The notes beneath the pieces were generated by a model that was given only the letters and a program-made list of their open reading frames with translations, was not told the origin of the DNA and searched no databases. Position numbers and translations under genes: made by a program. A DNA stretch of 54,175 bases from Candidatus Thalassarchaeum sp. (lineage in GTDB: Archaea > Thermoplasmatota > Poseidoniia > Poseidoniales > Thalassarchaeaceae). The stretch is taken from NCBI GenBank assembly GCA_030748335.1, contig JASMMD010000005.1:1-54175 (forward strand), read 5' to 3'. Positions 799-18,783 of the stretch are shown here, one piece after another. How positions within the stretch are numbered: position 1 is the stretch's first letter; every line of letters begins with the position of its first letter.

Positions 799-1854
799 AT
801 GGCGGAGATAGCAGTCGGGAAGGGTAACTGGGCTAACGCCTCGGCCCGCAGCAAGGCTAGGAAGGCCAAGTTGCTCGACGAGACCAGACTCCGCCAACTG
901 ATGAAGAGCGGCCCGGACACTATCGCCGCCAGCATAGGCGAGCTCGACTACCGCAGGGAACTCGACATCTACTCGGCCCGCCTCAGCGGGGCGGACCTCG
1001 TCGAGGCGGCCCTGAGCCACAATCTGGATCGTGAACTCACAGAGGTGATGGGCTTCTGTCAGGGCCGACTGAAGAGGATAGTCTCGGTCTTCGCCCTCCG
1101 CTTCTCGTACAGCAACGCCAAGGCGGTACTCCGTGCCGTCAATGGAGGGGCCTCTGTCGAGAGCCTAGCCAACTCGGTGTTGCCCGACGAGAACGACCTC
1201 AACGTGGACTGGCTCGAAATCGCCCGCCAGAGCGAGACCCTGCATGACGCAGCCACGGCGATGGGCGGAACACCTTGGGGATCTGCCGTTTCTGATATCG
1301 ACTCCGACGCGACGCTGCAGGAGTACGAGGACGCTCTGGACCGCCACTACTACCACGAGGCGATTTCAGCGCTCAGGACCAGTGGTCAGAGCCACAGCCT
1401 CCTATTGGGGTACCTACGCTCCGAAATCGACCATCGAAACATCGTGAACCTGCTACGAGCTCTACGTCAGAAACTGCCCGTAGAGCAGCGCTCAGGCCTG
1501 ATACTGGAAGGAGGCAGATTCCTCAAGGGAAATCTACTGCGAAGTGCCGCACAGGCGGATTCGGAGGACGCCCTGATGGAGGTCCTGCGTAGGACCAGCA
1601 TGGAGACCGCCGAGCTTGAGGATGCCCTGAAGGAGTCGCACGAACACGGTGGCCTAGACCCCGTGGTCAGCTACTTTGCATCCGAGAGGAGAGCCGACCT
1701 GAGGCGGATGAGCCATCTGAATCCCCTGTCGGCCTTCCCCCTAATTTACTACCTCGAGAGCAAGGTGCTCGAAGTCCAGAATCTCCGCCTGCTGGTGCGC
1801 GGCAAGGCGGTTGGGCTATCCGACGAGGTAATCGAAGCGCACATGGCGTTCTGA
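799..1854 (+). CDS. atpC: A/V-type ATP synthase subunit C
   Basis: ARSKARKAKLL, EIDHRNI.NLLR, EVQNLRLLVRGK motifs; ATG at 799 preferred over GTG at 787. Confidence 0.92.
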   Translation: MAEIAVGKGNWANASARSKARKAKLLDETRLRQLMKSGPDTIAASIGELDYRRELDIYSARLSGADLVEAALSHNLDRELTEVMGFCQGRLKRIVSVFALRFSYSNAKAVLRAVNGGASVESLANSVLPDENDLNVDWLEIARQSETLHDAATAMGGTPWGSAVSDIDSDATLQEYEDALDRHYYHEAISALRTSGQSHSLLLGYLRSEIDHRNIVNLLRALRQKLPVEQRSGLILEGGRFLKGNLLRSAAQADSEDALMEVLRRTSMETAELEDALKESHEHGGLDPVVSYFASERRADLRRMSHLNPLSAFPLIYYLESKVLEVQNLRLLVRGKAVGLSDEVIEAHMAF

Positions 1855-1863
1855 GGTGATGAT

Positions 1864-2163
1864 ATGGAGATAGCAATAGTAGGCACTACCGAATTCACCC
1901 TCGGATTCCAGTTAGCAGGCATAATGCGCCTGCACAACCCACACGGCGACGAGGAGATGCGCGACACCCTCAGCTCGTTGCTCGATGAGAAAGAGGTCGG
2001 TATCATCGTAGTCGATTCAGCCGATCTCACGCGCATGCCGGACAAACTCAGACAGCGAATGTCCGACAGCATTTCGCCCACAGTGTTGGGCATAGGGACA
2101 GAGGAGGACAATACCCTCCGTGAGTCCATCAAGTCGGCGCTCGGCGTCGACCTTTGGAAGTAG
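1864..2163 (+). CDS. atpF: A/V-type ATP synthase subunit F
   Basis: IAIVG...TLGFQLAGI and C-terminal ALGVDL; GAGGTGA Shine-Dalgarno upstream. Confidence 0.95.
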   Translation: MEIAIVGTTEFTLGFQLAGIMRLHNPHGDEEMRDTLSSLLDEKEVGIIVVDSADLTRMPDKLRQRMSDSISPTVLGIGTEEDNTLRESIKSALGVDLWK

Positions 2164-2196
2164 ATTCCTCGAATACAAGGATAAGGAAGTGAAGAA

Positions 2197-3939
2197 ATGA
2201 GTGAAGAAAACGGATTGATTTACAGAATCTCAGGACCGGTCGTCACGGCCGTCGGCATCTCGCCGAGAATGTACGAAGTGGTACGAGTCGGTGACGAAGG
2301 ACTGATGGGAGAAGTGATTGAGTTGCACGGTGACCAGTCGGTCATCCAGGTCTATGAGGAGACCTCGGGCATCAGGCCAGGCGAGCCGGTGATCAGGACA
2401 GGTCAGACCCTGTCCGTGAAGTTGGGCCCCGGTCTGCTGACACAGATCTACGACGGGATACAGCGGCCTCTGGAGGACCTTGAGGAGACCATGGGCGTGT
2501 TCATCACGCGTGGTGTCGATGCCGATGGACTCGACCTCACGAAGAAGTGGGAGTTCAACGCCACCGCCTCGGTCGGCGACGAGGTCTCAGGCGGCTCTAT
2601 AATCGGATTCGTTCAGGAGACCGAGACCGTTGAGCACAGGATCATGGTCCCCCCGGGACCCGGTGGCAAGATTGCTAGCATCGAGTCTGGCGAGTTCGAC
2701 ATTACGACCACGGTGTGCACTCTCGAAGACGGCACTGAGGTTGCGATGATGCAGGAGTGGCCGGTCAGGACCCCGCGCCCGTTCATCCAGAAGAACGCCC
2801 CGGACGTGCCGTTGGTGACTGGCCAGAGGATTCTCGACTTCCTGTTCCCCCTAGCTAAGGGCGGAACCGCTGGCATCCCCGGACCGTTCGGTGCTGGGAA
2901 GACAGTGACCCAACAGCAGTTGGCTAGGTGGTCGGACGCTCAAATCGTCGTCTACATCGGCTGCGGTGAGCGTGGCAACGAGATGACAGAGGTTCTCACA
3001 GAATTCCCTCATCTGATGGATCCCAACACCGGCAAGCCGCTGATGAACAGGACCACGATGATAGCTAACACCTCCAACATGCCGGTCGCCGCACGTGAGG
3101 CATCCGTGTACACCGGCATCACAATCGCCGAGTACTTCAGGGACATGGGATACGATGTCGCCCTCATGGCCGACTCCACCAGCAGGTGGGCCGAGGCCAT
3201 GCGAGAGATATCTTCCCGTCTCGAGGAGATGCCCGGCGAGGAGGGATACCCTGCCTATCTGTCAAGCCGACTGGCCGAGTTCTACGAGCGCGCAGGACGA
3301 GTCCAGACTCTGGGCGGAGATGACGGGTCGGTATCGGTCATCGGTGCCGTTTCTCCTCCAGGAGGGGACATCTCGGAACCGGTCAGCCAGGGTACCTTGA
3401 GAATCGTCAAAGTGTTCTGGGGCCTCGATGCGGGTCTGGCTAGGCAGCGACACTTCCCCGCAATCAACTGGCTGAGTTCCTACAGCTTGTATCCACAGGC
3501 ACTGGACCAGTGGTACCGGGATAACATCGCTAGCGATTTCCCTGAGGTCAGAACGAAGATCAGCAGCCTGCTGCAAGTCGAGGCCGAGCTTCAGGAGATT
3601 GTGCAACTGGTCGGCTCTGACGCCCTCCCCATGGACCAACAGCTTACACTAGAGGTCGCACGGATGATTCGCGAATTCTTCCTGCAGCAGAACGCTTTCC
3701 ACGATGTAGACACTTTCAGCCAGTTGGGACTCCAGTATGAGATGGCCAAGGCAATCTTGACCTTCCAAGAGGAGTCCGAGAAGGCAATGGCCGGTGGAGC
3801 CGGTCTGGAGGAAGTTGTCAACGTCCCTGCACGTACCGACCTGATGAGAGGTCGATTCGAAGAGGGCTATGCTGAGCGCATTGGGAAATTACTCGGTGAG
3901 ATGTCTAAGCAGATTGCTGGGACTATGGAGGACAACTAA
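2197..3939 (+). CDS. atpA: A/V-type ATP synthase catalytic subunit A
   Basis: Walker [36 protein letters not shown]; no intein. Confidence 0.99.
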
Positions 3940-3952
3940 GGGGGTGCCATGA

Positions 3953-5338
3953 ATGAGCGGAAAGGAATACAGAACAATTACTGATGTCAAAGGACCATTG
4001 GTCTTCCTCGAGAAGACGGAACCCGTATCCTACGGTGAGATCGTGCAGTTACGACTCTCTGACGGGACGATGAAGAACGGACAGGTGCTCGATACCAGCG
4101 ATGATCAGGTCATCGTACAGGTCTTCGAGGGAACCGCGTCCGTAGACAGACAGACCGGGGTCAAGTTCCTCGGAGACGTCTTCAGGCTCCCTGTCAGCAA
4201 GGGACTGATTGGACGTATCCTAGACGGTGCAGGGAAGCCAAGAGACGGCGGACCAGAGATCGTTGCCGAGGAGATGGCGGACATCATCGGTGCCGCCATC
4301 AACCCCTACAGCCGCGAGAGCCCGGAACAGTTCATCCAGACTGGGATCTCGGCAATCGACGCCTGCACGAGTCTTGTGCGTGGGCAGAAGCTGCCAATCT
4401 TCTCAGCATCCGGCCTACCTCACAACGACATAGCCTTACAGATCGCGAGACAAGCTAAGCTGGTAGGCAGCGATGACGACTTCGTCGTCGTCTTCTGCGC
4501 AATGGGAATCACAGCCGAGGAGTACAACTTCTTCGTGCACGATCTAGAGAGGACTGGTGCACTGGAGAACGCCGCGCTGTTCGTCAATCTAGCGGACGAC
4601 CCTGCCGTCGAGCGACTGATTACTCCGAGACTGGCCCTGACGGCCGCCGAGTACCTAGCGTTCGAACACGATTACCACGTGCTCGTCATCTACACTGACA
4701 TGACCAACTATTGCGAGTCCTTGCGTCAGATTGGGGCTGCCCGCGAGGAAGTCCCCGGAAGGCGTGGGTACCCCGGATACATGTACACTGATCTGGCGAT
4801 GCTGTACGAGAGAGCAGGCATGGTCAAGGGCAAGAAGGGAAGCATCACCCAGTTCCCCATCCTTACAATGCCAGGAGACGACATCACGCATCCGATCCCC
4901 GACCTATCGGGATACATCACCGAGGGACAGATCGTGATTTCCAGAGAGCTGCATCAGAAGGGGATATACCCTCCAATCAACGTACTGCCGTCCCTGTCAA
5001 GGCTGATGAACGCAGGAATCGGAGAGGGTAAGACGCGAGAGGACCACAAGTCGGTCTCCGACCAGCTCTATGCCGCCTATGCAGGAGGCAGAGAATTGAG
5101 GGGATTGGTGGCAATCGTCGGAGAGGACGCACTCAATGAGCGTGACCTGCAGTTGCTGAAGTTCGCAGACATCTTTGAGGACCAGTTCCTCAGGCAGAGT
5201 CGGGACGAGGACCGCTCGATATCGGAGGGCACGCTCGACCTAGCGTGGGATCTTCTGACTAACATCGACACGAAGTACCTAGTCAGGCTGGACCAGAAGT
5301 GGATAGACAAGTACCACCCCACTGAGAGCAAGTCGTGA
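3953..5338 (+). CDS. atpB: A/V-type ATP synthase subunit B
   Basis: [46 protein letters not shown]. Confidence 0.99.
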
Positions 5339-6008: not shown

Positions 6009-6065
6009 GCGTACGTGCGAGGGGTCAAAACCCACCTCCCCAGCCCAATATCGGGAGGAGTCAAC

Positions 6066-8480
6066 ATGACCGAGGCCGAAACTCATCTGCTAGACACCGA
6101 GACGTGGAGTCAGCATGAACTGCTCGAGGTAATCTGCTCGAGGTACTTCGTCCTCGGAAGTCAGGGCTTGGCCGAGCACTCGTGGGAGGTCAACGGCAGG
6201 GACGGCAGAAGCCCCAGTTCCTGCCTCCGCTCGCTGAATAGGCACCTCAAGGACCTCGGGCTGATTGCGGTGCTCGACGAGGGCGACCCGCCTCTGCTCA
6301 GTGTAGGCGGCTTGCCGGTCCAGATGATGGTGATGCCAGCTTGGCAACAGGCTCTGGTATGGGCTTTGGTTACAGGGTTCGCGACTATGGCAGGTGCCCT
6401 CTGGGTCACCCATCTGGACCCATCTCTAGCTGTCCTCGAAACTGCTGTTCTGCAGACCGCCTTCGCCTTCTTCGCCCTCCCCGTGGTCGGTTCCGTGTTA
6501 CTAGCGAGCTACGCCCGGATCTTCGTCTCGGAAGCATTGGAAGCCGAGTCGAGTCACCTAATCCCGCTCGCCTTCCCGGTGATGTCAGCGGAATGGCCGT
6601 TCAGCCTGATTTCGGCGATTGGTCAGTTGAGGCCAGACCTGCACCCAGTGCCCAATCGACGCGCGCTAGGGTTGATCGAGTTGACCACACCGACAGTAAT
6701 GTTCGTCTGCGGCTCGATTCTGACCATACTAGGGCTGGGCATGACGCATGACCAGCCACCGGCGTTCGAGGCGGCTCCAATAGTAGTCGACACCAACTCC
6801 TTAGTGGACATTCTAGGTTCCTTGATGCAATCCTCTGACGTGGCCATGAAACTCCAATGGATACACCCGACCGGACTGGCCGGCATTGCTCTCTCACTAG
6901 CTGGGTGGGCTCTGCTACTGCCAATCCCAGGATTCCCTGGGGACCGCATACTGCATGCTCTAATCGGTCCCGAGGACATGGAGGAGGGCGGCAATCAGAC
7001 GTCAATATTCATCATCACGCTCGGATTCACACTGTTCGTATTCATGAGCACGGACTACTGGCCGTGGCTGCTTCTGGTGGCAATTGCCGCGTGGCGCAGG
7101 TTCAGCCCCGAGCAGATGCCCTCGCCTTACGTCGTGGACGAGTACGCGGGACTCGACGAGATCCCGATGCGCCAGATTGCATCGTTGACTCTGGCAATCC
7201 TATTGCTGGGGTACCCCGGCCTCGAGCCCAGTTATGAGATGGAGGGATGGGACGCTGGCCTGTCGACCGAGTCGTGGCCCGGGTTTGTGGCCTTCGAGGA
7301 CGGGCAGGCTTCAGTTGAATTGGTGCTAGAGCCTGCCGGAGTTATGCCGGTCTCTGGCTGGTTGCAGATGCGCGTCGAAGGGGCCCCTTACGGAGGCTGG
7401 CAAATTGATTCGGAGTGCTTGGATGAGAGGGGGACCTGCCGATTCGAAGACATCACTCAGGCCTCTCCGGGAAGCGTGTCGATTAGTCTGTCTCGTGAGC
7501 AGATGGAGGCTACAGAGCAGGCTTTCAGGCTGGTCGTCCTAGTCGATGTGGCCAATCACGTGACCGAGCACGCAATTGTGTTCCAGCCGATTGGGACAAC
7601 CACGCCGATAGACCCTCTGTGGGTGATGGTCGAGGACACGAGCACCCCAAGGATCTGCGTAGAACTCCTAGTAGTCGAGGATGACCACGTCAACCTGTCC
7701 AACTACAACCCGTTCTGGTCATTCGAGAACGAGACTTCGCTGGGTCCCGATCTGCACACTCTTTGCATGCGCGGTCACGAGGGAGCGATAAACTCCCTGT
7801 CACTGCAGGACGAGCAGTTCCGGAGAATAGGCCCCTCTATCGTGGTGTCCAGAGGAGATCTGAACAATGATATCCTGTTCATGCCGATCGAGGGCACTCA
7901 GCCGAAGATTCAGGTCTCTGAGAGCGAGTGGCTGATTCCCGAGTCGTTCGAGACGGGATCCGAGTACACCATCGCCCGAGGCGACTCCGGCTCGGCGTTC
8001 TGCCCGTCTTCCGAGGTAATCGCAGAGGTCAACGCGACCGGCGACTGGCAGAGGGACCTCTCTGACCACTCGGCAATCCTCGTCCCAGCCGGGCAGACGG
8101 GCAACGCAACCCTGAGATTCCCGCCTTCTGGCTGGTTGGCTCTGTGTAATGGCACCAACATGCTCGCCTCATACAAGGTGGTAGAGGGTCCGGATGTCAT
8201 GGTCGACCCGGGAACACTCGGATCGAGAATGCCTAGTGGCGAGTTCAGCATAGTGAACCGCGAGAACACATCAATGCCAATCTCTCTGGATTGGACCGGG
8301 GATGCGGTCGCGTGGGACAACTGGGAGTCATGGGCCCCGGCCGAAGTGGCCGCGATGTCATCAGTCACGGCCAACGCTTCCGTTCACGGGAGCCCGCCTG
8401 CTTGGTGGGCAGCCTGGGTCACGGCTGAGGAGGACAGCATCACCCTACACTTCGCAGCTCGTTCTTGGGAGGGGGCATGA
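6066..8480 (+). CDS. Site-2 protease (M50)-like polytopic membrane protein lacking catalytic motifs, with a large C-terminal soluble domain
   Basis: GGAGGAG before ATG 6066. S2P-like segments (LIPLAFP..., PVPNRRALGLIEL..P, IHPTGLAG...LLPIPGFPGDRILHAL), but no HExxH and no NxxPxxxxDG. Confidence 0.65.
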   Translation: MTEAETHLLDTETWSQHELLEVICSRYFVLGSQGLAEHSWEVNGRDGRSPSSCLRSLNRHLKDLGLIAVLDEGDPPLLSVGGLPVQMMVMPAWQQALVWALVTGFATMAGALWVTHLDPSLAVLETAVLQTAFAFFALPVVGSVLLASYARIFVSEALEAESSHLIPLAFPVMSAEWPFSLISAIGQLRPDLHPVPNRRALGLIELTTPTVMFVCGSILTILGLGMTHDQPPAFEAAPIVVDTNSLVDILGSLMQSSDVAMKLQWIHPTGLAGIALSLAGWALLLPIPGFPGDRILHALIGPEDMEEGGNQTSIFIITLGFTLFVFMSTDYWPWLLLVAIAAWRRFSPEQMPSPYVVDEYAGLDEIPMRQIASLTLAILLLGYPGLEPSYEMEGWDAGLSTESWPGFVAFEDGQASVELVLEPAGVMPVSGWLQMRVEGAPYGGWQIDSECLDERGTCRFEDITQASPGSVSISLSREQMEATEQAFRLVVLVDVANHVTEHAIVFQPIGTTTPIDPLWVMVEDTSTPRICVELLVVEDDHVNLSNYNPFWSFENETSLGPDLHTLCMRGHEGAINSLSLQDEQFRRIGPSIVVSRGDLNNDILFMPIEGTQPKIQVSESEWLIPESFETGSEYTIARGDSGSAFCPSSEVIAEVNATGDWQRDLSDHSAILVPAGQTGNATLRFPPSGWLALCNGTNMLASYKVVEGPDVMVDPGTLGSRMPSGEFSIVNRENTSMPISLDWTGDAVAWDNWESWAPAEVAAMSSVTANASVHGSPPAWWAAWVTAEEDSITLHFAARSWEGA

Positions 8481-12500: not shown

Positions 12501-13480
12501 TGCAGGGGCTCGAGCGCCGCCTCGGTCATCTCGGCAATGTGAACATGCTAGCCATAGAGCAGTACGACAGCACAGCCGAGCGCATCGACGGGCTGGTCGA
12601 GGACGGCAAGCTATTGCGTAGCCGGCGTGAGCAGTTAGTTTCGCTGGTGGATCAGTTGGAGACTGAGCGCAAGACTAGGCTGATGACTGTGTTCGATCAC
12701 GTCAACAAGAACTTCTCGAGGGTCTACGAGATACTGCAGCCGGGCGGAAGCGGTAAACTGCGCATGGAGAACCTTAGGAATCCCTTCGATGGGGGCTTGG
12801 AAATGGACTGCGTACCTCCGGGCAAGAGCAAGAACACCCGCCGAAACCAGCTTTCTGGCGGCGAGAAGTCGATGGCCGCGCTGGCCCTGATATTCTCGAT
12901 TCAAGATTACGAGCCGAGCCCGTTCTACTATCTCGACGAAGTCGACCAGAACCTCGACCCATTCAACGCCGAGCGCATTGCCACTCTATGCAGAATACGC
13001 AGCCAACAAGCACAGTTCCTCATGGTGACCCTGCGCAAGATCAGTCTGACCCTAGCTGACCACCACGTTGGTGTCACCCACGCTGGTGATGGCCGCAGCC
13101 GACTCATCACTGACTTCGATAGGGTGGCCGCCATTGAGATGGGCGAGAAGTTCGAGGCCGAGCGGAAGGCCCAGACTCAGATCAAGGCAGATCGACAGGC
13201 TATGCCCGAATTGCCTGAACCCGAGGACATGCCGAGGACTCCCGATCCTCTGGGAACTCCGAAGAGCTTGGGTGGGCTAGCCGAGCGAGCCGGGGCGGAA
13301 ATCGAAGCCAGTGAGACGGAAGACAGGGTTGAGGCAGAAGGAGGAACCATCGAGTCATTGCGCGATCGCACCGAGGACTGGACCGAGGACATGGGCGAGC
13401 GCGAGGAGGTCGAGCAGGTCCTCGTAGAATCGGAGGAAGACGAGGTCGACTCCGAGGCTGAACAGAAGGAGGCTGAATAA
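9563..13480 (+). CDS. smc: Chromosome segregation protein SMC
   Basis: NFKSF, GPNGSGKSN, hinge GRATFLPL / G..TGG, LSGGEKS, YYLDEVD; GGTGAGG before ATG 9563. Confidence 0.98.
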   Translation: MHLLRMELENFKSFGGEVTIPLEEGFTAITGPNGSGKSNTLDALEFVLGPKSTKSLRAANVTQLIFNGGKRGRPAKHMSASLVFDNTPEVDSRRRLRVETDEVRFTRTVKLGRKGDPISSYRINDEPSSATEMRRVLAEAGLRAGGYNIVKQGDVTTLATMTPHKRRGVLEEVAGVTAYDDEIRRAGTQRKHVEANIETIDLFEVEQKKRLKDLGKEREQALKFKQLKDELDIARVSLHQSRHRNRSDEVRLLGEERSRYLEEIDGIGGKITDGKKGVLALDEELVKVDSDINEITSGEARGLFEQIRQYQIDIETGGDRIGDQRSIIEEAEEEAEVFRTELQGAQSAHEDAQGALDSASQALEEAKATLKSASAEELEARNAIESGDKAGRDLKRTLGRASEAMDEAQTIHAEASLKADLADQKAQIASSKLADLEGEFEEATMVRDDLELVGEDLQGDQPEKDRGSLAEELRRLQKQEAELAGDRDRSELRVRDAERELNKARARQEGRSGSPGSAVTLAALTKLRQSGDVKGILGSLGELTAPKDPSHEEALANALGAGLRSIVVTDDDVAAKCIAWLRQNGGGRATFLPLSKLTTSRPGGRSLIVTNNPGVIGFAHDLLDYDSEIETAVRYAGRNTLVVETMEVARRNMGGVRLVTLDGSVIESSGAMTGGSKATSTRNAFGGGSVSSSLDRLEAAVEDANLLYSTVEAALRELRANQQSLRDSIHGLDGDDHSVRLRNWKADIERAQKNVDEARKKVVAATREFERCEEAQVAARAAADEASGNFESAAAVRAEAAQALQDHAPDHLSQKLREAERQMTEAERTKLASESAISSSNERLHILSGRVVEIQRQIDKKLEAISTAEARISELEKAIAEANDNLEDLRVQASQFDEEQQALKERRDEIVDERASLKASVETMSQKRETLAARIEDLNIQIQQKREAVDEIAAELEEAGISIPTAEAQLPTVAEAEKSVQGLERRLGHLGNVNMLAIEQYDSTAERIDGLVEDGKLLRSRREQLVSLVDQLETERKTRLMTVFDHVNKNFSRVYEILQPGGSGKLRMENLRNPFDGGLEMDCVPPGKSKNTRRNQLSGGEKSMAALALIFSIQDYEPSPFYYLDEVDQNLDPFNAERIATLCRIRSQQAQFLMVTLRKISLTLADHHVGVTHAGDGRSRLITDFDRVAAIEMGEKFEAERKAQTQIKADRQAMPELPEPEDMPRTPDPLGTPKSLGGLAERAGAEIEASETEDRVEAEGGTIESLRDRTEDWTEDMGEREEVEQVLVESEEDEVDSEAEQKEAE

Positions 13481-14487
13481 TGGCGGTGTTCGATGGTAAG
13501 GCACTGCGTGACGATATCGTGGAGACGATGCTCGGTGGCGAAACCGACCTCGAGACTAGCAGGTATCTCGACAGGCTCGTCGAGCTGGCCACCCTCGAGC
13601 AGGCTGAGCACCAGTTCCTCATCGACCCGTTCGACCGCTCGGTAGCTCTGGTACTACAGCTCTTCCAGTCCAGCGACCTAGATCCCTGGGACGTCGACCT
13701 CAGTTCCTTCCTCGTTATGTTCAACGAGAGGATAAAGGAGTCTGAGAACATCGACCTGCCGACTTGCGGCAGGCTGGTCAGGATGACCTGGTGCATCCTG
13801 CGAGGTCAAGCATCCACTTTGCTGGAGAGGCAGGAACGCGCCTTCGACTTCGAGGAGGAGGAAGTGTGGGAATTCGACGGCGGCTGGGAGTCAGAGTTCG
13901 ACGATGCCGACTACAACTTCTCCGTAGGAGTCATGTCCGGTGCTGCCGACGAGGCCCTACCGCAGATGTTCGAAGGCAGGATCCATCGTGACGAGAGTAG
14001 ACCAGTCACCCTCGGCGAACTTCTACTAGGACTCAAGGACGCCGGCAGACTCGCAGCCGAGCAGCGGCTGCGTGAGGAGATAGCTAAGGAGCGCCGTGAA
14101 GCCAACGCCCGTGCTAGGGAGAGATTCAGCGGCAGCCTCCATGTGGAAGACCTCGAGGGCGATCTGCAGCGAACTTGGGAATCTCTCAAGGCCCGCTCGA
14201 AGGGGGCCGGAAAGCCCATCGTTTTGCAGGACCTGGTGCACGACATCTCATCGAAGTCAATTGAGTCCGGCATCGACAAGGAGGAAGCAGAGGCCGAGGC
14301 GCAAGTCACAGCCTTGGTTTCCGCTCTTTTCCTGACCAACAGGGGCTACGTCGACCTGAAGCAGGAGAAGGGACGCAATGGAAAAATCACTCTCAAGGAC
14401 CTGTGGGCCAAGGAAGATGACTTCTCGGTACTCTCCCAGAAGCTCCACCCCAACACGATGACCATGGAGGTAGTCACGGATGTCTGA
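13480..14487 (+). CDS. scpA: Segregation/condensation protein A (kleisin)
   Basis: LDPWDVDL, RPVTLGELL, C-terminal LVSALFL...G.VDLKQE; start overlaps the smc stop. Confidence 0.9.
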   Translation: MAVFDGKALRDDIVETMLGGETDLETSRYLDRLVELATLEQAEHQFLIDPFDRSVALVLQLFQSSDLDPWDVDLSSFLVMFNERIKESENIDLPTCGRLVRMTWCILRGQASTLLERQERAFDFEEEEVWEFDGGWESEFDDADYNFSVGVMSGAADEALPQMFEGRIHRDESRPVTLGELLLGLKDAGRLAAEQRLREEIAKERREANARARERFSGSLHVEDLEGDLQRTWESLKARSKGAGKPIVLQDLVHDISSKSIESGIDKEEAEAEAQVTALVSALFLTNRGYVDLKQEKGRNGKITLKDLWAKEDDFSVLSQKLHPNTMTMEVVTDV

Positions 14488-15104: not shown

Positions 15105-16400
15105 TTACTCCGCTCGCACCCTCTCAAGCTCCTCTTCGACTGCCCTCTGGGTGATTCTGCCGCCCCTCTCGCGCAGTCGGGATGCTACGATGTCCACCTC
15201 GGCCCCCTCAGCGCCTGCGGTCACGGCCATGTTCCTAACGTGCAGCTTCATGTGACCGGCTTGGATTCCCACTGTGGCCAGTGCCCTCAGGGCCCCTAGG
15301 TTCTGGGCCAGTCCTGCCGCTGCCATCACCTTGGCAAGGTCGTCGGCGGAAGTAATTCCGAGCAGGGCCACATTGGCCTGGGCCGCAGGGTGGACTCTCA
15401 CGGCCCCCCCAACGAGGCCCACGGCCATCGGCAGCTCGATCGATCCCACCAGATTACCACCATCATCCTTCTCCCAGTGCGTAAGTGAGCCGTAGACCCT
15501 CTCGTGGGCAGCGTAGCTGTGGGCACCTGATTCAACGGCCCGCCAGTCTTGTCCACATGCGATTGCTATGGGAGAAATTGCGTTCATGATACCCTTGTTG
15601 TGAGTGGTTGCGCGGAACGGGTCGGCCTTGGCGAAGTGATAGGCCTGCAGCACCCCGTCAATCACCTCGGAGCCCTGTGCAGCATCGCCCTTTTCGGACA
15701 TTTCCTCAGGAGTGAATACCGCACTCACCCTAGCGAGCCTGTGCACAGCCAGATTGCTGATTATTCGCAGTATCACGGTCCCACCAGTCAATCCCTCTAC
15801 CTTCGGCGCAATCGTCTCGGCCATGGTGTTGACAGCGTTCGCCCCCATGGCGTCCCTGCAGTCAACGAGGATGTGTACTATCACCATCGGCCCGGAGTCG
15901 GTTTCGATGATTCTGGCTTGGATGTCCCTGCAGCCACCGCCGAACTTGACTAGAATCGGGTCCACAGAGTTGCATGATTCCACTAATTCGGCACTATTCT
16001 GCAGAATTGAAGCTATAGCAGCTTCCGGGTCCTTGCAGCCCACCACCTGAATCTGCCCAATCATCACAGGATCGTCGTTGTCGGAAGTAAATCCCCCTTT
16101 GGAATGGCATCGCTTCGCCATGTTGCTGGCCGCAGCAACCACACTAGGCTCCTCAAGCACGAAGGGAATCAGGTAGTGATCACCATCGATGATGAAGTTG
16201 GTAGCGACCCCTATTGGAAGCGAGTAGGTCCCAATCACATTTTCTATCATCCTATCGGCCGAATCCTCCGAGAGCTCCCCTGAGGATGACCACGCCTCGA
16301 CCTGCTCGGGGGTGAGTTTGGCTATGTCAGCCAGCATCTCCCTCCGTTCTGAAACCGAGAGCTTGTAGAATCCCTCTAGCCGGCTGCTGTCGACTGGCAT
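15105..16400 (-). CDS. hmgA: Class II HMG-CoA reductase
   Basis: SRLEGFYKLS, IENVIG, EEPSVVAAAS, DAMGAN, THNKG, GIQAGHMKLH; ATG at 16400 fits the family N-terminus. Confidence 0.95.
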   Translation of the reverse strand: MPVDSSRLEGFYKLSVSERREMLADIAKLTPEQVEAWSSSGELSEDSADRMIENVIGTYSLPIGVATNFIIDGDHYLIPFVLEEPSVVAAASNMAKRCHSKGGFTSDNDDPVMIGQIQVVGCKDPEAAIASILQNSAELVESCNSVDPILVKFGGGCRDIQARIIETDSGPMVIVHILVDCRDAMGANAVNTMAETIAPKVEGLTGGTVILRIISNLAVHRLARVSAVFTPEEMSEKGDAAQGSEVIDGVLQAYHFAKADPFRATTHNKGIMNAISPIAIACGQDWRAVESGAHSYAAHERVYGSLTHWEKDDGGNLVGSIELPMAVGLVGGAVRVHPAAQANVALLGITSADDLAKVMAAAGLAQNLGALRALATVGIQAGHMKLHVRNMAVTAGAEGAEVDIVASRLRERGGRITQRAVEEELERVRAE

Positions 16401-16488
16401 CCGTATCGGTTGAAGCCCGGTGGAATTGGCTTCTAACTGTTTGCGAGTGGCTTCGATATTCCTCCGAATCCGGGCTAAGGTCATGCGG

Positions 16489-16673
16489 AGCGTTTAGGAA
16501 AACACGTTAATTCGGCTATTAACGGGTCATTAACGCATCAATAAAGCGTTAGTGAAGCGTTAACGCCTAGGAATCACATTCGATTTACTGAGCGGAATCC
16601 CCCTGCCTAATGCACTTCGGAAATTCGCCAGAACGCGTTAAATCGGCTTCTAGGAAGCGTGAGGATGCGTGAA
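16489..16673. repeat. AT-rich intergenic array of CGTTAA-like repeats, including the palindrome GCGTTAACGC
   Basis: CGTTAA 16505; TTAACG 16519 and 16530; GCGTTAG 16546; GCGTTAACGC 16557-16566; GCGTTAA 16635; GCGTGA 16657 and 16667. Hand count gives 40 G+C in 16491-16590. Confidence 0.7.
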
Positions 16674-16705
16674 TATTAAGAATGATAGAAATCGCTGCTC
16701 GGGCA

Positions 16706-18484
16706 ATGATTGGAGAGGCAGTCTCGTTACTGGACCTACCTCCATTAAGGGGCAACCCATTCGACCACAGGCCGATTGACTCCACACGCGCTCAGGATCT
16801 AGTGGGACGCGATTCGCTGATGACCCGACTCAGGGAACACATCATCTCGGAATCCCCTAGGATGATACTCTTGGTAGGAGAGGGAGGCAGCGGTAGGACA
16901 TCCCTGGTGAACGCACTCTCCTCCCAGGTGAGCAAGAGGTTCGTCGGCAAGATATGGCCCCAAGACGAGACAGTAGTCTCGGTCATCAGCGAGGTCGCGG
17001 TCGGGTTAACTGGAAGCTTCGACGTTCCAGCCTCGACCGAGCAGATGTGCGAGAGGTTGATTGACACCCTCGAGCAAGGCACCGGACCACTCCCTCTGAT
17101 AGCCCTCGATTATCCGGATACGGTGCCGATGAATGACTTTCTGGCACGAATGTCACCTGTTTTGCAGAGTTTGAGAGCCTTGGTCATCGTGACATTGACG
17201 CCCGGACAGCTCGCCTCACTCGAAGAGGAGGTGCTTGAGGCGTTCGACCCCCCCGAGCACCTCGGGGGGCTGTCAGAGAGTCAGATACAGCGACTTGTGG
17301 ACAACCTCATGCGTAGGAAGGCGCGCGAGCGTTGGATACTCAAATCCGATCTGCTGTCTGCCATCCACGACAACACCGGGGGCAATCCACGGGCGGTCGT
17401 TCGCACATGCAGGAATCTAGTAGACGAGAGGAGGGGCGTCGGCTCGGAGGGGGCCCTTGAAAGGCTTGTTGGGTGGCAGAGGATTGTCGAAGAGGCGGAC
17501 GATGCAATCGAGGAAATCCCTAGGTCGAGAACGGAGCCGGAGCAGACCTCCGAGCCCGAGGTGGAGGATGACGAAGAGGACTGGGACACCGAGCCTGAGG
17601 ACCTATGGGGGGACGAACCGGAGCCCGTTGAAGAGCCCGAGGAGCTCGATTGGGACGAGGAGATTCCGGATCCAGAGGAGATTTGGGAAGACGAGCCCGA
17701 GCAGTCAGCCCCCGCCCCACAGCAAGGCCAGGAAACACTCGACTCCTTCGTCGTCGCGGAAGAGGTACCCGGGCCGGCGCCACAGCATCACCGGGTCGGA
17801 GGACTCAGTGGTCTGGCCGACAGATCGCAGAGAATCAGCGCGGCCCTGCCCGAGGGTCCTGACGAGACTCCAATCACCGTAGCTGAGAACCGACCGCAAC
17901 TCACGCCTGCACCAATTAGGCCACCCTCCAGCCCCGACCCCGAGTCAGCCTTCGTCACCGAGGCCAAGCCAGACACATCGGTCTCACCAACCGAGGACCA
18001 GCCTGTCATGGCCGCCGAGGGCGCCCTCTGGACCGTGGATCCCAGCCTCGGCTCATCTCTTCCCGAACTCGATGAAGGGGCTAAGGCCACGCCTGAACCA
18101 GTCTTCGACATCGAGCACTCCCCTCCTCCTCCGGCTCCGGAGCCCGAGCCTGTGTTCGAGGAGCCAGAGGCCGAACCCTCTCATCCCCTCCCACCACGTA
18201 TCCCAATTCCTCTAGGCCCCTCTTGGGACCCCGACGAGCCCCTAGACAGATCTAGGGCTGCAAACGTCTCTGAGACTGAGCGAGTAGTTCTGGCTGAGGC
18301 TAGGGAGCGTGAAGTATCGCCCTCCGATCCCGCCCTCCAGGCTGTCCTCGAGGTCGGCCGGACTAGGCTCTCCCAGATCTTCAACGGACTGCGTAAGGCC
18401 GGATTGCTCTCAGTCAGGAAGCAGGGTCGTACGAGGCTGTTCAAATTGAGCAGGGCAGCCTCGCTGGAGCTCGAGATGACCTAG
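16706..18484 (+). CDS. Uncharacterised AAA/P-loop protein with degenerate Walker motifs, a long acidic Pro-rich linker and a C-terminal ArsR-like winged helix
   Basis: NPF..P...LVGR, GEGGSGRTS, LIALDY, TGGNPR; C-terminal RTRLSQIFNGLRKAGLLSVRKQGRTRLFKL. The start could instead be 16682. Confidence 0.8.
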   Translation: MIGEAVSLLDLPPLRGNPFDHRPIDSTRAQDLVGRDSLMTRLREHIISESPRMILLVGEGGSGRTSLVNALSSQVSKRFVGKIWPQDETVVSVISEVAVGLTGSFDVPASTEQMCERLIDTLEQGTGPLPLIALDYPDTVPMNDFLARMSPVLQSLRALVIVTLTPGQLASLEEEVLEAFDPPEHLGGLSESQIQRLVDNLMRRKARERWILKSDLLSAIHDNTGGNPRAVVRTCRNLVDERRGVGSEGALERLVGWQRIVEEADDAIEEIPRSRTEPEQTSEPEVEDDEEDWDTEPEDLWGDEPEPVEEPEELDWDEEIPDPEEIWEDEPEQSAPAPQQGQETLDSFVVAEEVPGPAPQHHRVGGLSGLADRSQRISAALPEGPDETPITVAENRPQLTPAPIRPPSSPDPESAFVTEAKPDTSVSPTEDQPVMAAEGALWTVDPSLGSSLPELDEGAKATPEPVFDIEHSPPPPAPEPEPVFEEPEAEPSHPLPPRIPIPLGPSWDPDEPLDRSRAANVSETERVVLAEAREREVSPSDPALQAVLEVGRTRLSQIFNGLRKAGLLSVRKQGRTRLFKLSRAASLELEMT

Positions 18485-18492
18485 GTGCTGGG

Positions 18493-18783
18493 ATGTCAGG
18501 GTCGATAGTCACTAGGGGCAGGGTTGAGGAGTACCTAGCTCTGACCTCGGAGGCTAGGTCGAAGGCGACCCCATGCGCCGAGGGTGAGGCCGACGAGGCC
18601 CGGTTGGCTTCGATGCTCAGGATGTGTGATGATTACGCCTCTGATGCGAGGCATTTCATGGAGGAAGGGGACCTAGTCAGAGCCTTTGGAGCAATCAATT
18701 ACTCACACGCATGGTTGGACGCAGCGGTCCGAATCGGACTACTAGACGGGCACGGCGACGACCGGCTGTTCACACTGCCCTAG
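18493..18783 (+). CDS. DUF357 family protein
   Basis: Y.SDARHF.E.GD.V.AF.AINY.HAWLDA..R.G, typical of archaeal DUF357. Confidence 0.85.
   Translation: MSGSIVTRGRVEEYLALTSEARSKATPCAEGEADEARLASMLRMCDDYASDARHFMEEGDLVRAFGAINYSHAWLDAAVRIGLLDGHGDDRLFTLP

What the first reader, a model, noticed from the sequence alone, without database searches (positions are those of the whole stretch)
16706..18484. Orphan AAA-IDR-wHTH protein next to the array: candidate new initiator or chromosome-organising factor
Seen: an N-terminal P-loop domain with NPF/LVGR and GGNPR landmarks but Walker A GSGRT (Lys to Arg) and Walker B LIALDY (no catalytic Glu). This is followed by about 250 aa of acidic Pro-rich linker and an ArsR-like wHTH. 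Established: AAA plus wHTH is the architecture of Orc1/Cdc6 and of archaeal STAND-like ATPases, and these substitutions normally impair hydrolysis. Inference: a hydrolysis-poor oligomerising module tethered to a DNA reader, which could bind the adjacent phased repeats and bridge DNA or recruit SMC or Cdc6. Protein plus cis array is the best candidate for an undescribed system here.
Basis: partly seen in the sequence, partly recalled or inferred. Interest (0 to 1): 0.78.

Follow-up and report, generated by a model that had tools for sequence, protein, structure and literature searches.

The report
Degenerate Cdc6-like ATPase tethered to wHTH
A conserved single-copy gene of the marine archaeal order Poseidoniales encodes a catalytically crippled Cdc6-like ATPase joined by a long acidic disordered linker to a DNA-binding winged helix, and it always sits beside a unique array of eight phased GCGTTAA boxes that it probably binds.

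Summary
ORF 16706-18484 (592 aa) has an AAA+ domain with GSGRTS and LIALDYP, a linker of about 235 aa (28% Asp+Glu, 19% Pro) and an ArsR-type wHTH. It is not an orphan. It was found in 244 of 251 Poseidoniales genomes and in 0 of 10 sister-order genomes. Synteny is fixed: smc, scpB, hmgA, then this gene, DUF357 and, further on, cdc6.

The N-domain model is closest to Cdc6/Orc1 (Z 15-16). The C-domain model is closest to CzrA/HlyU (Z about 10). Both ends are homologous (hhalign 95-96%) to compact archaeal proteins of 360-430 aa that have the NPF motif, an AAA+ domain and a wHTH, with normal GKT and DE/DD motifs. This family is therefore a derivative with an inserted linker and a degenerate ATPase site.

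The 221-bp region upstream carries eight (A/T)GCGTTA(A/G) boxes at 10-11 bp phasing. They are conserved order-wide, 42-fold enriched, and form the only such cluster in each genome examined. The recognition helix R.R(L/M/A)SQ is equally invariant.

Best reading (0.45): a non-hydrolysing AAA+ switch that occupies the boxes over the divergent hmgA and own promoters. An origin or SMC landmark role is not excluded (about 0.2). GC skew was inconclusive. No binding was tested.

The parts
16706..18484 (+). CDS of the AAA+-linker-wHTH protein, 592 aa plus stop. An in-frame ATG at 16682 would give 600 aa.
   Evidence: Orthologs are intact, with no internal stops in the listed matches of 244 genomes.
16706..17485 (+). 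N-terminal AAA+ domain (base plus lid), residues 1-260
   Evidence: AlphaFold model pLDDT 86.3, pTM 0.80. Best structural matches: Cdc6 7jgr_G Z 16.0, Orc1-3 2qby_B Z 15.7, ORC2 1w5s_A Z 15.0.
16748..16774 (+). N-terminal RGNPFDHRP motif (NPF landmark)
   Evidence: G-N-P-F and R-P are invariant in 52 of 52 aligned orthologs. NPF is shared with the compact relatives.
16877..16903 (+). Walker A GEGGSGRTS, with Arg in place of the canonical Lys
   Evidence: Arg in 95, Lys in 5, not matched in 1 of 101 orthologs.
17090..17116 (+). Walker B LPLIALDYP, with Asp kept and Tyr in place of the catalytic Glu
   Evidence: Asp-Tyr-Pro in 69 of the 84 orthologs my pattern matched. None has Asp-Glu. Asp, Tyr and Pro are invariant in 52 of 52.
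17375..17392 (+). TGGNPR in the lid helix, at the sensor-2 Arg position (position assigned by recall of Orc1/Cdc6 G-D-A-R)
   Evidence: Arg in 51 of 52. The motif lies in helix 228-243 of the model. The same G-N-P-R occurs in the compact relatives.
17492..18196 (+). Acidic, Pro-rich disordered linker, residues 263-497
   Evidence: Composition. The alignment is gap-rich with islands of conservation. Length and sequence vary across the order.
17573..17608 (+). Acidic-aromatic motif EEDWDTEPEDLW. In the 20 further loci the counterpart is F-[DE]-L-D-[LM]-x-x-L.
17729..17752 (+). QETLDSFV, a PIP-box-like string. The resemblance is recalled and was not tested.
   Evidence: Q-x-T-L-D-S-[FY]-V in 12 of 20 rows of A1. 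The Gln is lost in the more distant rows.
17798..17833 (+). Order-wide linker motif GGLSGLADRSQR, consensus [GP]-F-[GS]-[GRK]-L-x-x-R-x-[RK]
   Evidence: L378 and R381 are invariant in A1. Seen by eye in 18 of 18 printed linkers of the further loci. A narrow pattern matched 66 of 101.
18017..18049 (+). Second order-wide linker motif EGALWTVDPSL, core x-L-W-x
   Evidence: V442 and W450 are invariant in A1. L/F/Y-W is visible in the further loci.
18248..18481 (+). C-terminal ArsR/SmtB-type winged helix-turn-helix. Recognition helix VGRTRLSQIFNGLRKAG at 18353-18403, wing at 18407-18448.
   Evidence: Model pLDDT 91.4. CzrA Z 10.2, ArsR 6j05_B Z 10.0, HlyU Z 9.5. Foldseek top match is HlyU. SPSD in 100 of 101 and R.R[LMA]SQ in 100 of 101.
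16504..16673 (.). Array of eight (A/T)GCGTTA(A/G)-type boxes, orientation given as > or <. Box starts: 16504 >, 16519 <, 16530 <, 16546 >, 16557 > (overlapped by a < copy at 16560), a spacer of about 70 bp, then 16635 >, 16657 >, 16667 >.
   Evidence: Boxes are >=90% conserved in 55 aligned intergenic regions. Spacings of 11, 10, 15-16 and 22 bp dominate.
16673..16680 (+). ATATTAAG, a TATA-box-like element directly after box 8 and 25 nt before ATG 16706. That it is a promoter for a leaderless mRNA is inferred.
   Evidence: The element ends 22-25 nt before the start codon in 47 of 52 orthologs.
15105..16484 (-). HMG-CoA reductase gene, divergent neighbour. Box 1 begins 20 nt from its start codon.
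   Evidence: PF00368 E 7.5e-108. Adjacent and divergent in every locus that reaches it.
18493..18783 (+). DUF357 gene, 8 nt downstream on the same strand. Probably co-transcribed (inferred).
   Evidence: PF04010 E 1.6e-18. It follows the gene in all 80 loci. In L091 an extra 347-aa ORF lies between them.

Best explanation
The gene encodes a site-specific DNA-binding switch protein confined to, and nearly universal in, the order Poseidoniales (Marine Group II archaea).

Origin of the family. It descends from compact archaeal proteins of 360-430 aa built as NPF motif, AAA+ domain, wHTH. Two changes set it apart. About 235 aa of acidic, Pro-rich disordered linker was inserted between the AAA+ lid and the wHTH. 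The ATPase site degenerated, with Walker A Lys to Arg, Walker B Glu to Tyr, and no Arg-finger candidate.

Proposed mechanism.
1. The ArsR-type wHTH reads the (A/T)GCGTTA(A/G) boxes. Several copies sit side by side on one face of the DNA at 10-11 bp phasing.
2. The boxes cover the divergent promoters of hmgA (HMG-CoA reductase) and of the gene's own operon. Occupancy would therefore autoregulate the gene and control hmgA.
3. The AAA+ module keeps a constrained nucleotide pocket but cannot hydrolyse. It acts as a nucleotide-dependent assembly or sensing module that couples the DNA-bound copies.
4. The conserved short motifs of the linker recruit one or more unknown partners.

Shown: the anatomy, the folds, the homology, the distribution, the synteny, and the conservation, phasing and uniqueness of the array.

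Inferred: that this wHTH binds these boxes, that nucleotide is bound but not hydrolysed, that copies assemble, that transcription is the output, and that the mRNA is leaderless.
For: Anatomy and folds.

Descent from compact relatives:
- A profile of the N-domain against 1.84 billion representatives gave 94 clusters at E<=1e-10. These were almost all family members and fragments, plus about four giant proteins with several AAA stretches matched only around the P-loop. Next came proteins of 357-429 aa at E about 1e-7 to 1e-8.
- All 10 of these that I scanned carry AAA+ or P-loop families (AAA_16, AAA_22, ATPase_2 or KAP_NTPase). Seven of the 10 also have a C-terminal wHTH family: HTH_24, Penicillinase_R, MarR_2, HTH_5, TrmB or HTH_IclR.
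- hhalign of the N-domain alignment against P0259 gave 95.5% over 226 columns. The C-domain alignment against the C-terminus of the same protein gave 95.9%.
- Six of the seven relatives fetched have NPF. All seven have G-x-G-K-[TS] and G-N/V/F-P/T-R. Their Walker B is D-E, D-D or D-N.

Protein-array pairing:
- GCGTTAA is present in 78 of 78 intergenic regions of the first set.
- All 98 regions hold at least 2 CGTTA cores, and 96 of 98 hold at least 3. Density is 26.1 per kb against 0.62 per kb in 1.1 Mb of flanking locus DNA.
- Same-strand neighbours are spaced 11 bp (116 cases), 10 bp (46) or 22 bp (28). Inverted neighbours are spaced 15-16 bp (97 cases).
- The array is the only cluster of at least 3 GCGTTA[AG] in the own genome (80.6% complete) and in the sampled half of closed genome G027. 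In closed genome G003 the strongest CGTTAA cluster also lies at the ortholog.
- The recognition helix R.R[LMA]SQ is present in 100 of 101 orthologs across families whose N-domains are 25-40% identical.

Promoter overlap: box 8 abuts a TATA-like element 25 nt before the ATG. Box 1 starts 20 nt from the hmgA ATG.

Selection: 244 of 251 genomes of the order have it, 63 of 65 high-quality genomes, all 25 genera, mostly as one match per genome. I examined five of the seven genomes without a match. In three hmgA was not found either, and in two hmgA is cut by a contig end at its 5' part.

Precedent for Orc1-type AAA+-wH proteins acting as regulators: Orc1-2 of Sulfolobales (PMC9738581, abstract seen in the listing).
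Against: - No binding, ATP or transcription data exist, and none could be produced here.
- A 592-aa protein with a linker full of conserved motifs is heavier than a local repressor needs.
- The box layout does not look like the inverted-repeat operator I recall for ArsR/SmtB dimers. It has five boxes, a 70-bp spacer with a conserved ACTG, then three boxes, and it mixes direct and inverted copies.
- One site per genome with order-wide conservation also fits a structural chromosomal landmark.
- Another factor could bind the boxes.
- The AAA+ fold is nearer to initiators (Z 15-16) than to generic AAA+ proteins (Z about 12).
- cdc6 stays linked within 2-4 kb even after inversions.
Confidence: 0.45

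Rival explanations
1. Chromosomal landmark. The protein-array complex is a lineage-specific nucleoprotein site that acts in replication initiation or in chromosome organisation or segregation. It would be an archaeal functional analogue of DnaA/oriC, of iteron-Rep systems, or of ParB/parS. The linker motifs would recruit Cdc6/MCM, PCNA/RPA or SMC-ScpAB. Autoregulation would be a by-product.
For: - The N-domain is structurally closest to Cdc6/Orc1 (Z 16.0, 15.7 and 15.0, against about 12 for generic AAA+ proteins).
- There is one array per genome examined.
- The boxes number eight and are helically phased.
- The block smc, the gene at the scpA position, scpB, hmgA, this gene, and cdc6 further on, is kept across the order. 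This holds for 20 of 20 further loci and about half of the 80 first loci, the rest lacking smc-scpAB.
- In four loci a rearrangement puts cdc6 directly after DUF357.
- The window's cdc6 has no sizeable intergenic region of its own. My reading of the coordinates and the alignment gives 75 bp and about 47 bp.
- In closed genome G003 the minimum of the cumulative GC skew (640-680 kb) lies next to the locus at 695 kb.
Against: - In closed genome G027 the skew minimum lies at about 280-440 kb, while the locus is at 614 kb. The local sign of the skew also differs between G003, G027 and the window, and the amplitudes are small.
- The spacer is not markedly AT-rich in this 59% GC genome.
- The boxes do not resemble ORB elements as I recall them.
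- A better classical origin candidate exists upstream of the second cdc6. It is a 400-bp intergenic region with 38-47% GC on contig C33.
- The wHTH is of the ArsR type, not Cdc6_C (hhalign probability 0.3%).
- The ATPase site is degenerate.
Confidence: 0.2
2. Decoupled pair. The GCGTTAA boxes are operators or promoter elements for another factor, or composite BRE/TATA-like elements of the two divergent promoters. The AAA+-linker-wHTH protein binds other DNA or has mainly a scaffold role.
For: - The boxes contain TTAA(T), which is TATA-like. Boxes 1 and 8 sit at promoter distance from the two start codons.
- No experiment links protein and boxes.
- The whole block of more than 13 kb is syntenic, so adjacency alone is weak evidence.
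Against: - Eight copies in 170 bp at helical phasing are far more than two promoters need.
- Box sequence and recognition helix are both invariant across the order, while the rest of the intergenic region and the rest of the protein diverge.
- No other DNA-binding gene is kept in the block in the window's own family, apart from scpB.
Confidence: 0.15
3. STAND-like or defence-type sensor. The protein would be a signal-sensing NTPase of the ATPase_2/AAA_16/STAND world, whose compact relatives are patchy in DPANN archaea and bacteria. It would be kept for stress or virus sensing rather than housekeeping.
For: - The top Foldseek match is an NB-ARC domain (8bv0_A, E 2.5e-8).
- There are sub-threshold Pfam matches to nSTAND1, NB-ARC and NACHT.
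- The compact relatives are sporadic, occurring in Woesearchaeota, Micrarchaeota and several bacterial lineages.
Against: - The gene is single-copy and near-universal, at a fixed housekeeping locus.
- There are no sensor repeats.
- No relative was confirmed in viral contigs: 26 pattern matches, none confirmed.
- The NTPase site is degenerate.
Confidence: 0.05

Closest known systems
Compact archaeal NPF-AAA+-wHTH proteins of 357-430 aa. Examples are P0259, P0255 and P0266. Their sources call them 'Cdc6-like AAA superfamily ATPase', 'AAA family ATPase' or 'ExeA/predicted transcriptional regulator'. Pfam families: AAA_16, AAA_22, ATPase_2, ORC-CDC6-like, plus a MarR, ArsR or TrmB HTH.
   Same: - The domain order is the same.
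- Both ends are homologous (hhalign 95.5% and 95.9%).
- NPF, G-N-P-R and the G-R-P-R-x-S-Q-I-x-N recognition helix are shared.
   Different: - The relatives have no linker.
- Their Walker A is canonical (G-K-[TS]) and their Walker B is D-E, D-D or D-N.
- They are patchily distributed.
- Their function is unknown too, so the match gives ancestry but not mechanism.
Archaeal Orc1/Cdc6, both initiators and the non-initiator regulator Orc1-2
   Same: - An AAA+ base plus lid, followed by a C-terminal winged helix.
- They are the best structural neighbours (Z 15-16).
- The gene lies next to its presumed DNA sites.
- Orc1-2 shows that such proteins can be transcription regulators (PMC9738581, abstract only).
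   Different: - TIGR02928 scores 15.6 bits against a cut-off of 181.3.
- hhalign to the organism's own Cdc6 gives 68.6% over 62 columns around the P-loop only.
- The wHTH is not Cdc6_C (the PF09079 search of the own genome finds two other genes).
- The Walker motifs are degenerate.
- There is a 235-aa linker.
ArsR/SmtB family repressors (CzrA, HlyU, SmtB)
   Same: The fold of the last 80 residues or so (Z 9-10, rmsd about 2 A over 77 residues). There is also a weak sequence match to HlyU (E 0.0035).
   Different: - Those are stand-alone dimers of about 100 aa with inducer sites.
- Here the domain is the tail of a 592-aa protein.
- NF033788 scores 20.5 bits against a cut-off of 55.
- Dimerisation was not tested.
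DnaA with DnaA boxes, and MalT with MalT boxes (comparison from recall)
   Same: It works like them on paper. An AAA+ or STAND module is coupled to a DNA reader that recognises arrays of short, oriented, phased boxes. For DnaA this includes boxes in the gene's own promoter.
   Different: - There is no sequence relationship beyond the AAA+ fold (DnaA domain III Z about 11, MalT Z 13.3).
- Those proteins bind and use ATP with canonical motifs.
- Neither has a long acidic linker before its DNA-binding domain.
ParB/parS (comparison from recall)
   Same: One or a few specific sites per chromosome beside the gene. Flexible linkers. Genomic proximity to smc-scpAB in the ancestral arrangement.
   Different: The folds are different: ParB is a CTPase with an HTH. 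No homology was seen in any search. No link to SMC was shown.

Membership tests
Orc1/Cdc6 (TIGR02928; PF13401/PF22703/PF09079) | AAA+ fold of the initiator type (base plus lid, with an extra helix between beta2 and beta3) | tested here: met
   Z 16.0 to Cdc6 7jgr_G (rmsd 4.0 A, 234 aligned) and Z 15.7 to 2qby_B. The model has two helices, 89-102 and 111-124, between strands 78-81 and 131-134. That this is the initiator-specific motif is my reading and was not confirmed by superposition.
Orc1/Cdc6 (TIGR02928; PF13401/PF22703/PF09079) | Family-level sequence score | tested here: not met
   TIGR02928 scores 15.6 bits against a cut-off of 181.3. hhalign against the organism's own Cdc6 alignment gives probability 68.6% over 62 columns only.
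Orc1/Cdc6 (TIGR02928; PF13401/PF22703/PF09079) | Canonical Walker A (GKT) and Walker B (DE) | tested here: not met
   The window has GSGRTS and LIALDYP. Arg is found in 95 of 101 orthologs. No Asp-Glu occurs in the 84 matched.
Orc1/Cdc6 (TIGR02928; PF13401/PF22703/PF09079) | C-terminal Cdc6_C winged helix (PF09079) | tested here: not met
   hhalign of the C-domain against the Cdc6 alignment gives probability 0.3%. The PF09079 search of the own genome hits only C55:21020-21289 and C33:45844-46104.
Compact NPF-AAA+-wHTH proteins (AAA_16/AAA_22/ATPase_2/ORC-CDC6-like plus ArsR/MarR/TrmB HTH) | Homologous AAA+ domain with N-terminal NPF and lid G-N-P-R | tested here: met
   hhalign 95.5%, E 1.6e-8, 226 columns against P0259. 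hmmsearch E about 1e-7 to 1e-8. The motifs are visible.
Compact NPF-AAA+-wHTH proteins (AAA_16/AAA_22/ATPase_2/ORC-CDC6-like plus ArsR/MarR/TrmB HTH) | Homologous C-terminal wHTH in the same order | tested here: met
   hhalign 95.9%, E 6.4e-9, 76 columns against residues 311-387 of P0259.
Compact NPF-AAA+-wHTH proteins (AAA_16/AAA_22/ATPase_2/ORC-CDC6-like plus ArsR/MarR/TrmB HTH) | Canonical P-loop Lys, an acidic pair in Walker B, and domains joined directly | tested here: not met
   The relatives have G-K-[TS] and D-E, D-D or D-N, and are 357-429 aa long. The window protein has G-R-T and D-Y, plus a 235-aa linker.
ArsR/SmtB transcription repressors (NF033788, PF01022) | wHTH fold alpha-alpha-alpha-alpha-beta-beta-alpha | tested here: met
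   CzrA Z 10.2, ArsR 6j05_B Z 10.0, SmtB Z 9.2. Secondary structure.
ArsR/SmtB transcription repressors (NF033788, PF01022) | Family-level sequence score | tested here: not met
   NF033788 scores 20.5 bits against a cut-off of 55. There is no Pfam HTH_5 match at E<=1.
ArsR/SmtB transcription repressors (NF033788, PF01022) | Homodimer that binds an inverted-repeat operator, with an inducer (metal or thiol) site | not tested
   No dimer prediction of the C-domain was run. The boxes occur both as direct and as inverted copies.
STAND NTPases (NB-ARC/NACHT/MalT type) | NTPase followed by a helical arm and sensor repeats (TPR, WD, LRR) | tested here: not met
   After the lid comes a low-complexity acidic linker without repeats. 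The Pfam STAND families are all below cut-off. At the fold level, NB-ARC 8bv0_A is the top Foldseek match.
Replication origin (archaeal oriC) for the adjacent array | Skew inflection or other replication signal at the site, with ORB-like repeats around an AT-rich unwinding element | tested here: inconclusive
   The G003 skew minimum at 640-680 kb lies near the locus at 695 kb. The G027 minimum at about 280-440 kb lies far from the locus at 614 kb. The spacer is not strongly AT-rich. No coverage-based test was possible.

The most novel reading that the evidence does not exclude
The protein and its eight-box array form a Poseidoniales-specific chromosomal organising centre. A non-hydrolysing Cdc6-like AAA+ hub is tethered by long acidic arms to one unique site next to smc-scpAB and cdc6. 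Its conserved linker motifs (the G-F-S-G-L-x-x-R motif, the L-W motif and the acidic-aromatic motif) recruit replication or condensin machinery. It would be an archaeal counterpart of DnaA/oriC or ParB/parS, built from unrelated parts.
Probability: 0.2. Interest if true: 0.85.

Novelty: new variant of a known kind. Interest (0 to 1): 0.55.

Why it matters
Poseidoniales (Marine Group II) are, as I recall, among the most abundant archaea of the surface ocean and have no cultured member. Their lineage-specific core genes are therefore the main clue to what sets their cell biology apart.

This is such a gene. It is present in nearly every genome of the order, was not found in the sister order, and is tied to a unique, deeply conserved cis element.

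If it is a regulator, it would be the first candidate controller of HMG-CoA reductase, the committed step of isoprenoid lipid synthesis, in this group. It would also be a natural example of an AAA+ initiator-type module turned into a non-hydrolysing switch.

If it is a chromosomal landmark, it bears on two open questions in archaea: what loads SMC-ScpAB, and how origins are marked beyond Orc1/Cdc6.

Either way the prediction is sharp and cheap to test in vitro: an 80-residue wHTH against an 11-bp box.

Tried and rejected
1. Homo-oligomer prediction of the N-domain, two copies. The verdict was 'no answer' (score 0.00, mark 0.42, controls not run). It is not evidence either way.

2. Expression. 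No listed holder of the stretch is on record as RNA. One run guessed to be RNA (X20) gave three contigs of 151-164 nt at 17212-17718. Three metatranscriptome runs gave nothing usable. This cannot show or deny transcription.

3. GC-skew mapping of origins, on 20-kb pieces taken every 40 kb from two closed genomes. The two genomes disagree and amplitudes are small. GC3 skew mostly mirrors gene strand (r -0.75 and -0.83).

4. Synteny in the sister order. DUF357 there has none of the window's neighbours within the fetched 11-20 kb. The ancestral occupant of the position could not be traced.

5. Sequence-only searches.
- Pfam and NCBIfam gave only sub-threshold hits.
- The PDB sequence search gave at best HlyU at E 0.0035.
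- The ESM Atlas returned mainly the family's own clusters.

6. Viral contigs: 26 pattern matches, none confirmed.

7. Rfam on 16300-16900 found nothing at E<=1. The bacterial-type promoter and terminator scan also found nothing, and it does not cover archaeal promoters.

8. Literature. Searches found no paper on this family or on the array. Search 74 and passages of PMC12680538 show only that DUF357 is one of 76 common archaeal marker genes. I saw passages of PMC3914693; they mention Marine Group II Cdc6/Orc1 copies but not this gene. Supplementary files were not consulted.

9. Earlier findings of this scan: three look-ups, nothing.

10. A PIP-box reading of QETLDSFV. The Gln is lost in the more distant orthologs, and no PCNA test was run.

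11. The 'scpA' label for 13480-14487. No family match was found. The name rests on position alone.

12. The search for homologous proteins was run only at 'near' lengths. Other lengths were covered by the search, which has no length limit.


Full report
**What is there.**
The window is archaeal, 57-63% GC. It comes from a Poseidoniales (Marine Group II) genome bin of 1.16 Mb, 80.6% complete.
- ORF 16682..18484 (+) encodes 600 aa.
Most close homologs are 592 aa.
- A conserved ATATTAAG element at 16673-16680 lies 25 nt upstream of that ATG. In 47 of 52 orthologs the matching element ends 22-25 nt before the assigned start.
- ATG 16682 lies only 1 nt after the element.
- From what is known of archaeal promoter geometry I infer a TATA box and a leaderless mRNA. 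This is an inference.

**Check of the observation.**
- RGNPFDHRP
- DLVGRD
- Walker A GEGGSGRTS
- Walker B LPLIALDYP
- TGGNPR

The linker, residues 263-497, is 28% Asp+Glu, 19% Pro and 3.8% Lys+Arg. Pfam and NCBIfam give only sub-threshold matches:
- AAA_16: 29.4 bits against a cut-off of 32.6.
- ArsR-type HTH: 20.5 bits against 55.
- Orc1/Cdc6 TIGR02928: 15.6 bits against 181.3.

**Folds.**
An AlphaFold model of residues 1-260, built on 50 orthologs, has pLDDT 86.3. In an all-against-representatives structural search its best matches are:
- Cdc6 of Drosophila (7jgr_G): Z 16.0, rmsd 4.0 A, 234 aligned.
- Orc1-3 of S. solfataricus on origin DNA (2qby_B): Z 15.7.
- A. pernix ORC2 (1w5s_A): Z 15.0.
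- MuB: Z 14.4.
- TnsC: Z 13.7.
- MalT: Z 13.3.
- Generic AAA+ proteins: Z about 12.

Foldseek ranks an NB-ARC domain and ORC1 first. The last 96 residues fold with pLDDT 91.4 into an ArsR/SmtB-type wHTH. The matches are CzrA at Z 10.2 with rmsd 1.9 A over 77 residues, ArsR at Z 10.0, and HlyU at Foldseek E 2.2e-4.

**Not an orphan.**
- A word-seeded search found 448 proteins at E<=0.001 among 7999 scored candidates. The listed hits run down to 40% identity, most of them over nearly the full length.
- In species-representative genomes, 174 of 197 pattern matches encode a relative. The 80 kept are titled as Poseidoniales, Marine Group II, Thalassarchaeaceae or unclassified archaea. One contig is filed under a bacterial bin.
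- A profile of the N-domain hits 244 of 251 genomes of the order. This includes 63 of 65 high-quality genomes and all 25 genera, mostly with one match per genome.
- Across the phylum it hits 38 of 40 and 65 of 65 genomes of the two large families of the order. It hits 0 of 10 genomes of the sister-order family. Elsewhere there are only matches at about E 1e-4 to 1e-5, mostly of 35-60 residues around the P-loop.
- I examined five of the seven genomes of the order without a match. Three show no hmgA either. In the other two hmgA is cut at its 5' part by a contig end. No true loss is shown.
- No internal stops were reported in the listed matches. The family is neither sporadic nor decaying.

**Where the family comes from.**
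A filter-only HMMER search of 1.84 billion representatives with the N-domain profile gave 94 clusters at E<=1e-10. These are almost all family members and fragments, plus about four giant proteins with several AAA stretches, matched only around the P-loop. After that come more such giants and a set of proteins of 357-429 aa at E about 1e-7 to 1e-8.
- All ten of these that I scanned carry AAA+ or P-loop families (AAA_16, AAA_22, ATPase_2 or KAP_NTPase).
- Seven of the ten also have a C-terminal wHTH family: HTH_24, Penicillinase_R, MarR_2, ArsR-type HTH_5, TrmB or IclR.
- Their sources name them 'Cdc6-like AAA superfamily ATPase' (a Bathyarchaeia member), 'AAA family ATPase [archaeon]' or 'ExeA/predicted transcriptional regulator'.
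- Profile-profile comparison shows both ends of the window protein to be homologous to the two ends of one such protein, P0259 (393 aa). The N-domain gives 95.5% over 226 columns and the wHTH gives 95.9% over 76 columns.
- Six of the seven relatives fetched share the NPF start. All seven share G-N-P-R in the lid, and some share an almost identical recognition helix (…GVGRPRASQIFNNL… in P0259).
- They have G-K-[TS] in Walker A and D-E, D-D or D-N in Walker B, and no linker.
- Against the organism's own canonical Cdc6 the N-domain reaches only 68.6% over 62 columns, and the wHTH 0.3%.

The Poseidoniales family is thus a derived branch of compact NPF-AAA+-wHTH proteins. It gained the linker and lost the catalytic residues.

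**The degenerate site is constrained.**
In 101 orthologs:
- Walker A carries Arg in 95 and Lys in 5.
- The Walker B Asp is followed by Tyr in 71 (69 as Asp-Tyr-Pro), by another residue in 13 (one Asp-Asp), and never by Glu. My pattern missed 17.

The lid Arg is kept in 51 of 52. I saw no Arg at the place where the window's own Cdc6 has IISRLG (the finger assignment is recalled). From what is known of P-loop ATPases this pattern predicts phosphate binding without hydrolysis. That is an inference.

**The linker is not featureless.**
Two short motifs survive across the whole order. One is [GP]-F-[GS]-[GRK]-L-x-x-R-x-[RK], at window residues 365-376. The other is an L-W core, at residues 438-448. 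An acidic-aromatic motif is also kept. It reads EEDWDTEPEDLW here and F-[DE]-L-D-[LM]-x-x-L in the more distant loci. A PIP-like QETLDSFV is confined to the nearer relatives. Partners are unknown.

**The array.**
The 221 bp between hmgA (15105-16484, minus strand) and ATG 16706 carry eight boxes. Their starts and orientations are 16504 >, 16519 <, 16530 <, 16546 > and 16557 >, then a spacer of about 70 bp, then 16635 >, 16657 > and 16667 >.
- From 556 instances the consensus is T-[AG]-A-[AT]-G-C-G-T-T-A-A-[TC].
- Same-strand neighbours are 11 bp apart in 116 cases, 10 bp in 46 and 22 bp in 28. Inverted neighbours are 15-16 bp apart in 97 cases.
- GCGTTAA is in 78 of 78 intergenic regions of the first set.
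- CGTTA cores occur at least twice in 98 of 98 regions and at least three times in 96 of 98. This includes the 20 loci of the other families.
- Core density is 26.1 per kb, against 0.62 per kb in 1.1 Mb of flanking locus DNA.
- In 55 aligned regions the boxes are at least 90% conserved, while the spacer varies except for an ACTG.
- In the own genome GCGTTAA occurs 21 times, four of them here, and this is the only cluster.
- In the sampled halves of closed genomes G027 and G003, the only clusters with four or more boxes lie directly upstream of the ortholog. Two three-box clusters occur elsewhere, one in each genome.
- The recognition helix R.R[LMA]SQ is present in 100 of 101 orthologs and SPSD in 100 of 101. 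The N-domains of the same proteins have diverged to 25-40% identity.

Box and reader are co-conserved. That is the strongest argument, though an indirect one, that this wHTH reads these boxes.

**Context.**
The order of genes is:
1. smc
2. an unnamed gene at the scpA position
3. scpB
4. hmgA (minus strand)
5. this gene
6. DUF357
7. a PIN-like gene
8. aIF2-gamma
9. S6e
10. cdc6

This order is seen in the window. It is seen in all 80 first loci as far as each reaches, about half of them lacking smc-scpAB. It is seen in 20 of 20 loci from the other families.
- Four loci carry a rearrangement that puts cdc6 directly after DUF357.
- DUF357 is one of 76 common archaeal marker genes (PMC12680538, passages). 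In the sister order it sits elsewhere.
- The genome has a second canonical cdc6 with a 400-bp, 38-47% GC upstream region.

**How it most likely works.**
I commit, at 0.45, to a DNA-bound switch. Several wHTH domains occupy the phased boxes on one face of the DNA, over both divergent promoters. Box 1 is 20 nt from the hmgA ATG, and box 8 abuts the TATA-like element. Occupancy autoregulates the gene and controls HMG-CoA reductase. The non-hydrolysing AAA+ modules couple the bound copies or sense nucleotide, and the linker motifs bring in partners. Orc1-2 of Sulfolobales is a precedent for an Orc1-type protein serving as a regulator (PMC9738581, abstract).

The main rival, at about 0.2, is a chromosomal landmark for replication or SMC loading.
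- For it: the initiator-like fold, the single site per genome, the eight phased boxes, the persistent linkage to cdc6 and smc-scpAB, and a GC-skew minimum next to the locus in G003.
- Against it: the skew minimum in G027 is 170-330 kb away and the skew signs are inconsistent. The spacer is not AT-rich. The wHTH is not of the Cdc6 type. A better classical origin candidate exists elsewhere.

Two lesser rivals remain. The boxes may belong to another factor (0.15). The protein may be a STAND-like sensor (0.05).

**Novelty.**
The parts are known kinds. The combination is new, as far as my searches show:
- an initiator-like AAA+ domain with an order-wide fixed Arg/Tyr site,
- a 235-aa linker bearing conserved motifs,
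- an ArsR-type reader,
- a unique eight-box array.

Searches found no description of it. I rate it a new variant of a known kind, with interest 0.55.

Noticed in passing
G000 contig C33:45751-47389 (locus L111): There is a second canonical cdc6 (412 aa, Cdc6_C 84.5 bits). Its upstream intergenic region is 400 bp long and drops to 38-47% GC in a 59% GC genome. This is a classical origin candidate, with several CTCCATT-like strings.
   Followed up: partly
window 6015-8480 (+): An 821-aa ORF lies between the A-type ATP synthase operon and panE. It has no Pfam or NCBIfam match at the thresholds used.
   Followed up: no
window 13480-14487 (+): The gene between smc and scpB overlaps the end of smc and the start of scpB, as a kleisin scpA would. 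It matches no ScpA model, only a weak HrpB7 coiled-coil hit. It may be a divergent kleisin.
   Followed up: partly
L091:6866-7909 (closed genome G003, other family of the order): An extra 347-aa ORF is wedged between the ortholog and DUF357, with overlapping stop and start. It has no Pfam family. Repeated D-G-x-L-W strings suggest a beta-propeller. A MarR-like 136-aa ORF follows DUF357 there.
   Followed up: partly
own genome G000, all contigs: GCGTTAA occurs 21 times in 1.16 Mb. Base composition predicts about 106. Scaling the dinucleotide-preserving shuffles of the window predicts about 31. Outside the array the word looks avoided.
   Followed up: no
L020 (PAQG01000020.1): This contig is filed under an 'Acidimicrobiaceae bacterium' bin but carries the complete Poseidoniales syntenic block, including the ortholog. 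It is probably a mis-binned contig.
   Followed up: no
L098, L099, L107, L108: The PIN-aIF2gamma-S6e-cdc6 block is rearranged, so that cdc6 lies directly after DUF357. In L108 cdc6 alone has the opposite orientation.
   Followed up: partly
L091 positions 4850-4865 region and, 45 notes: Part of the box array of closed genome G003 reads as N (withheld bases). Box counts for that genome are therefore lower bounds.
   Followed up: no
window 1854-2197: A 343-bp gap lies inside the A-type ATP synthase gene row, between the C and A subunit genes. It is the largest non-coding stretch I noticed in the window besides the array region.
   Followed up: no
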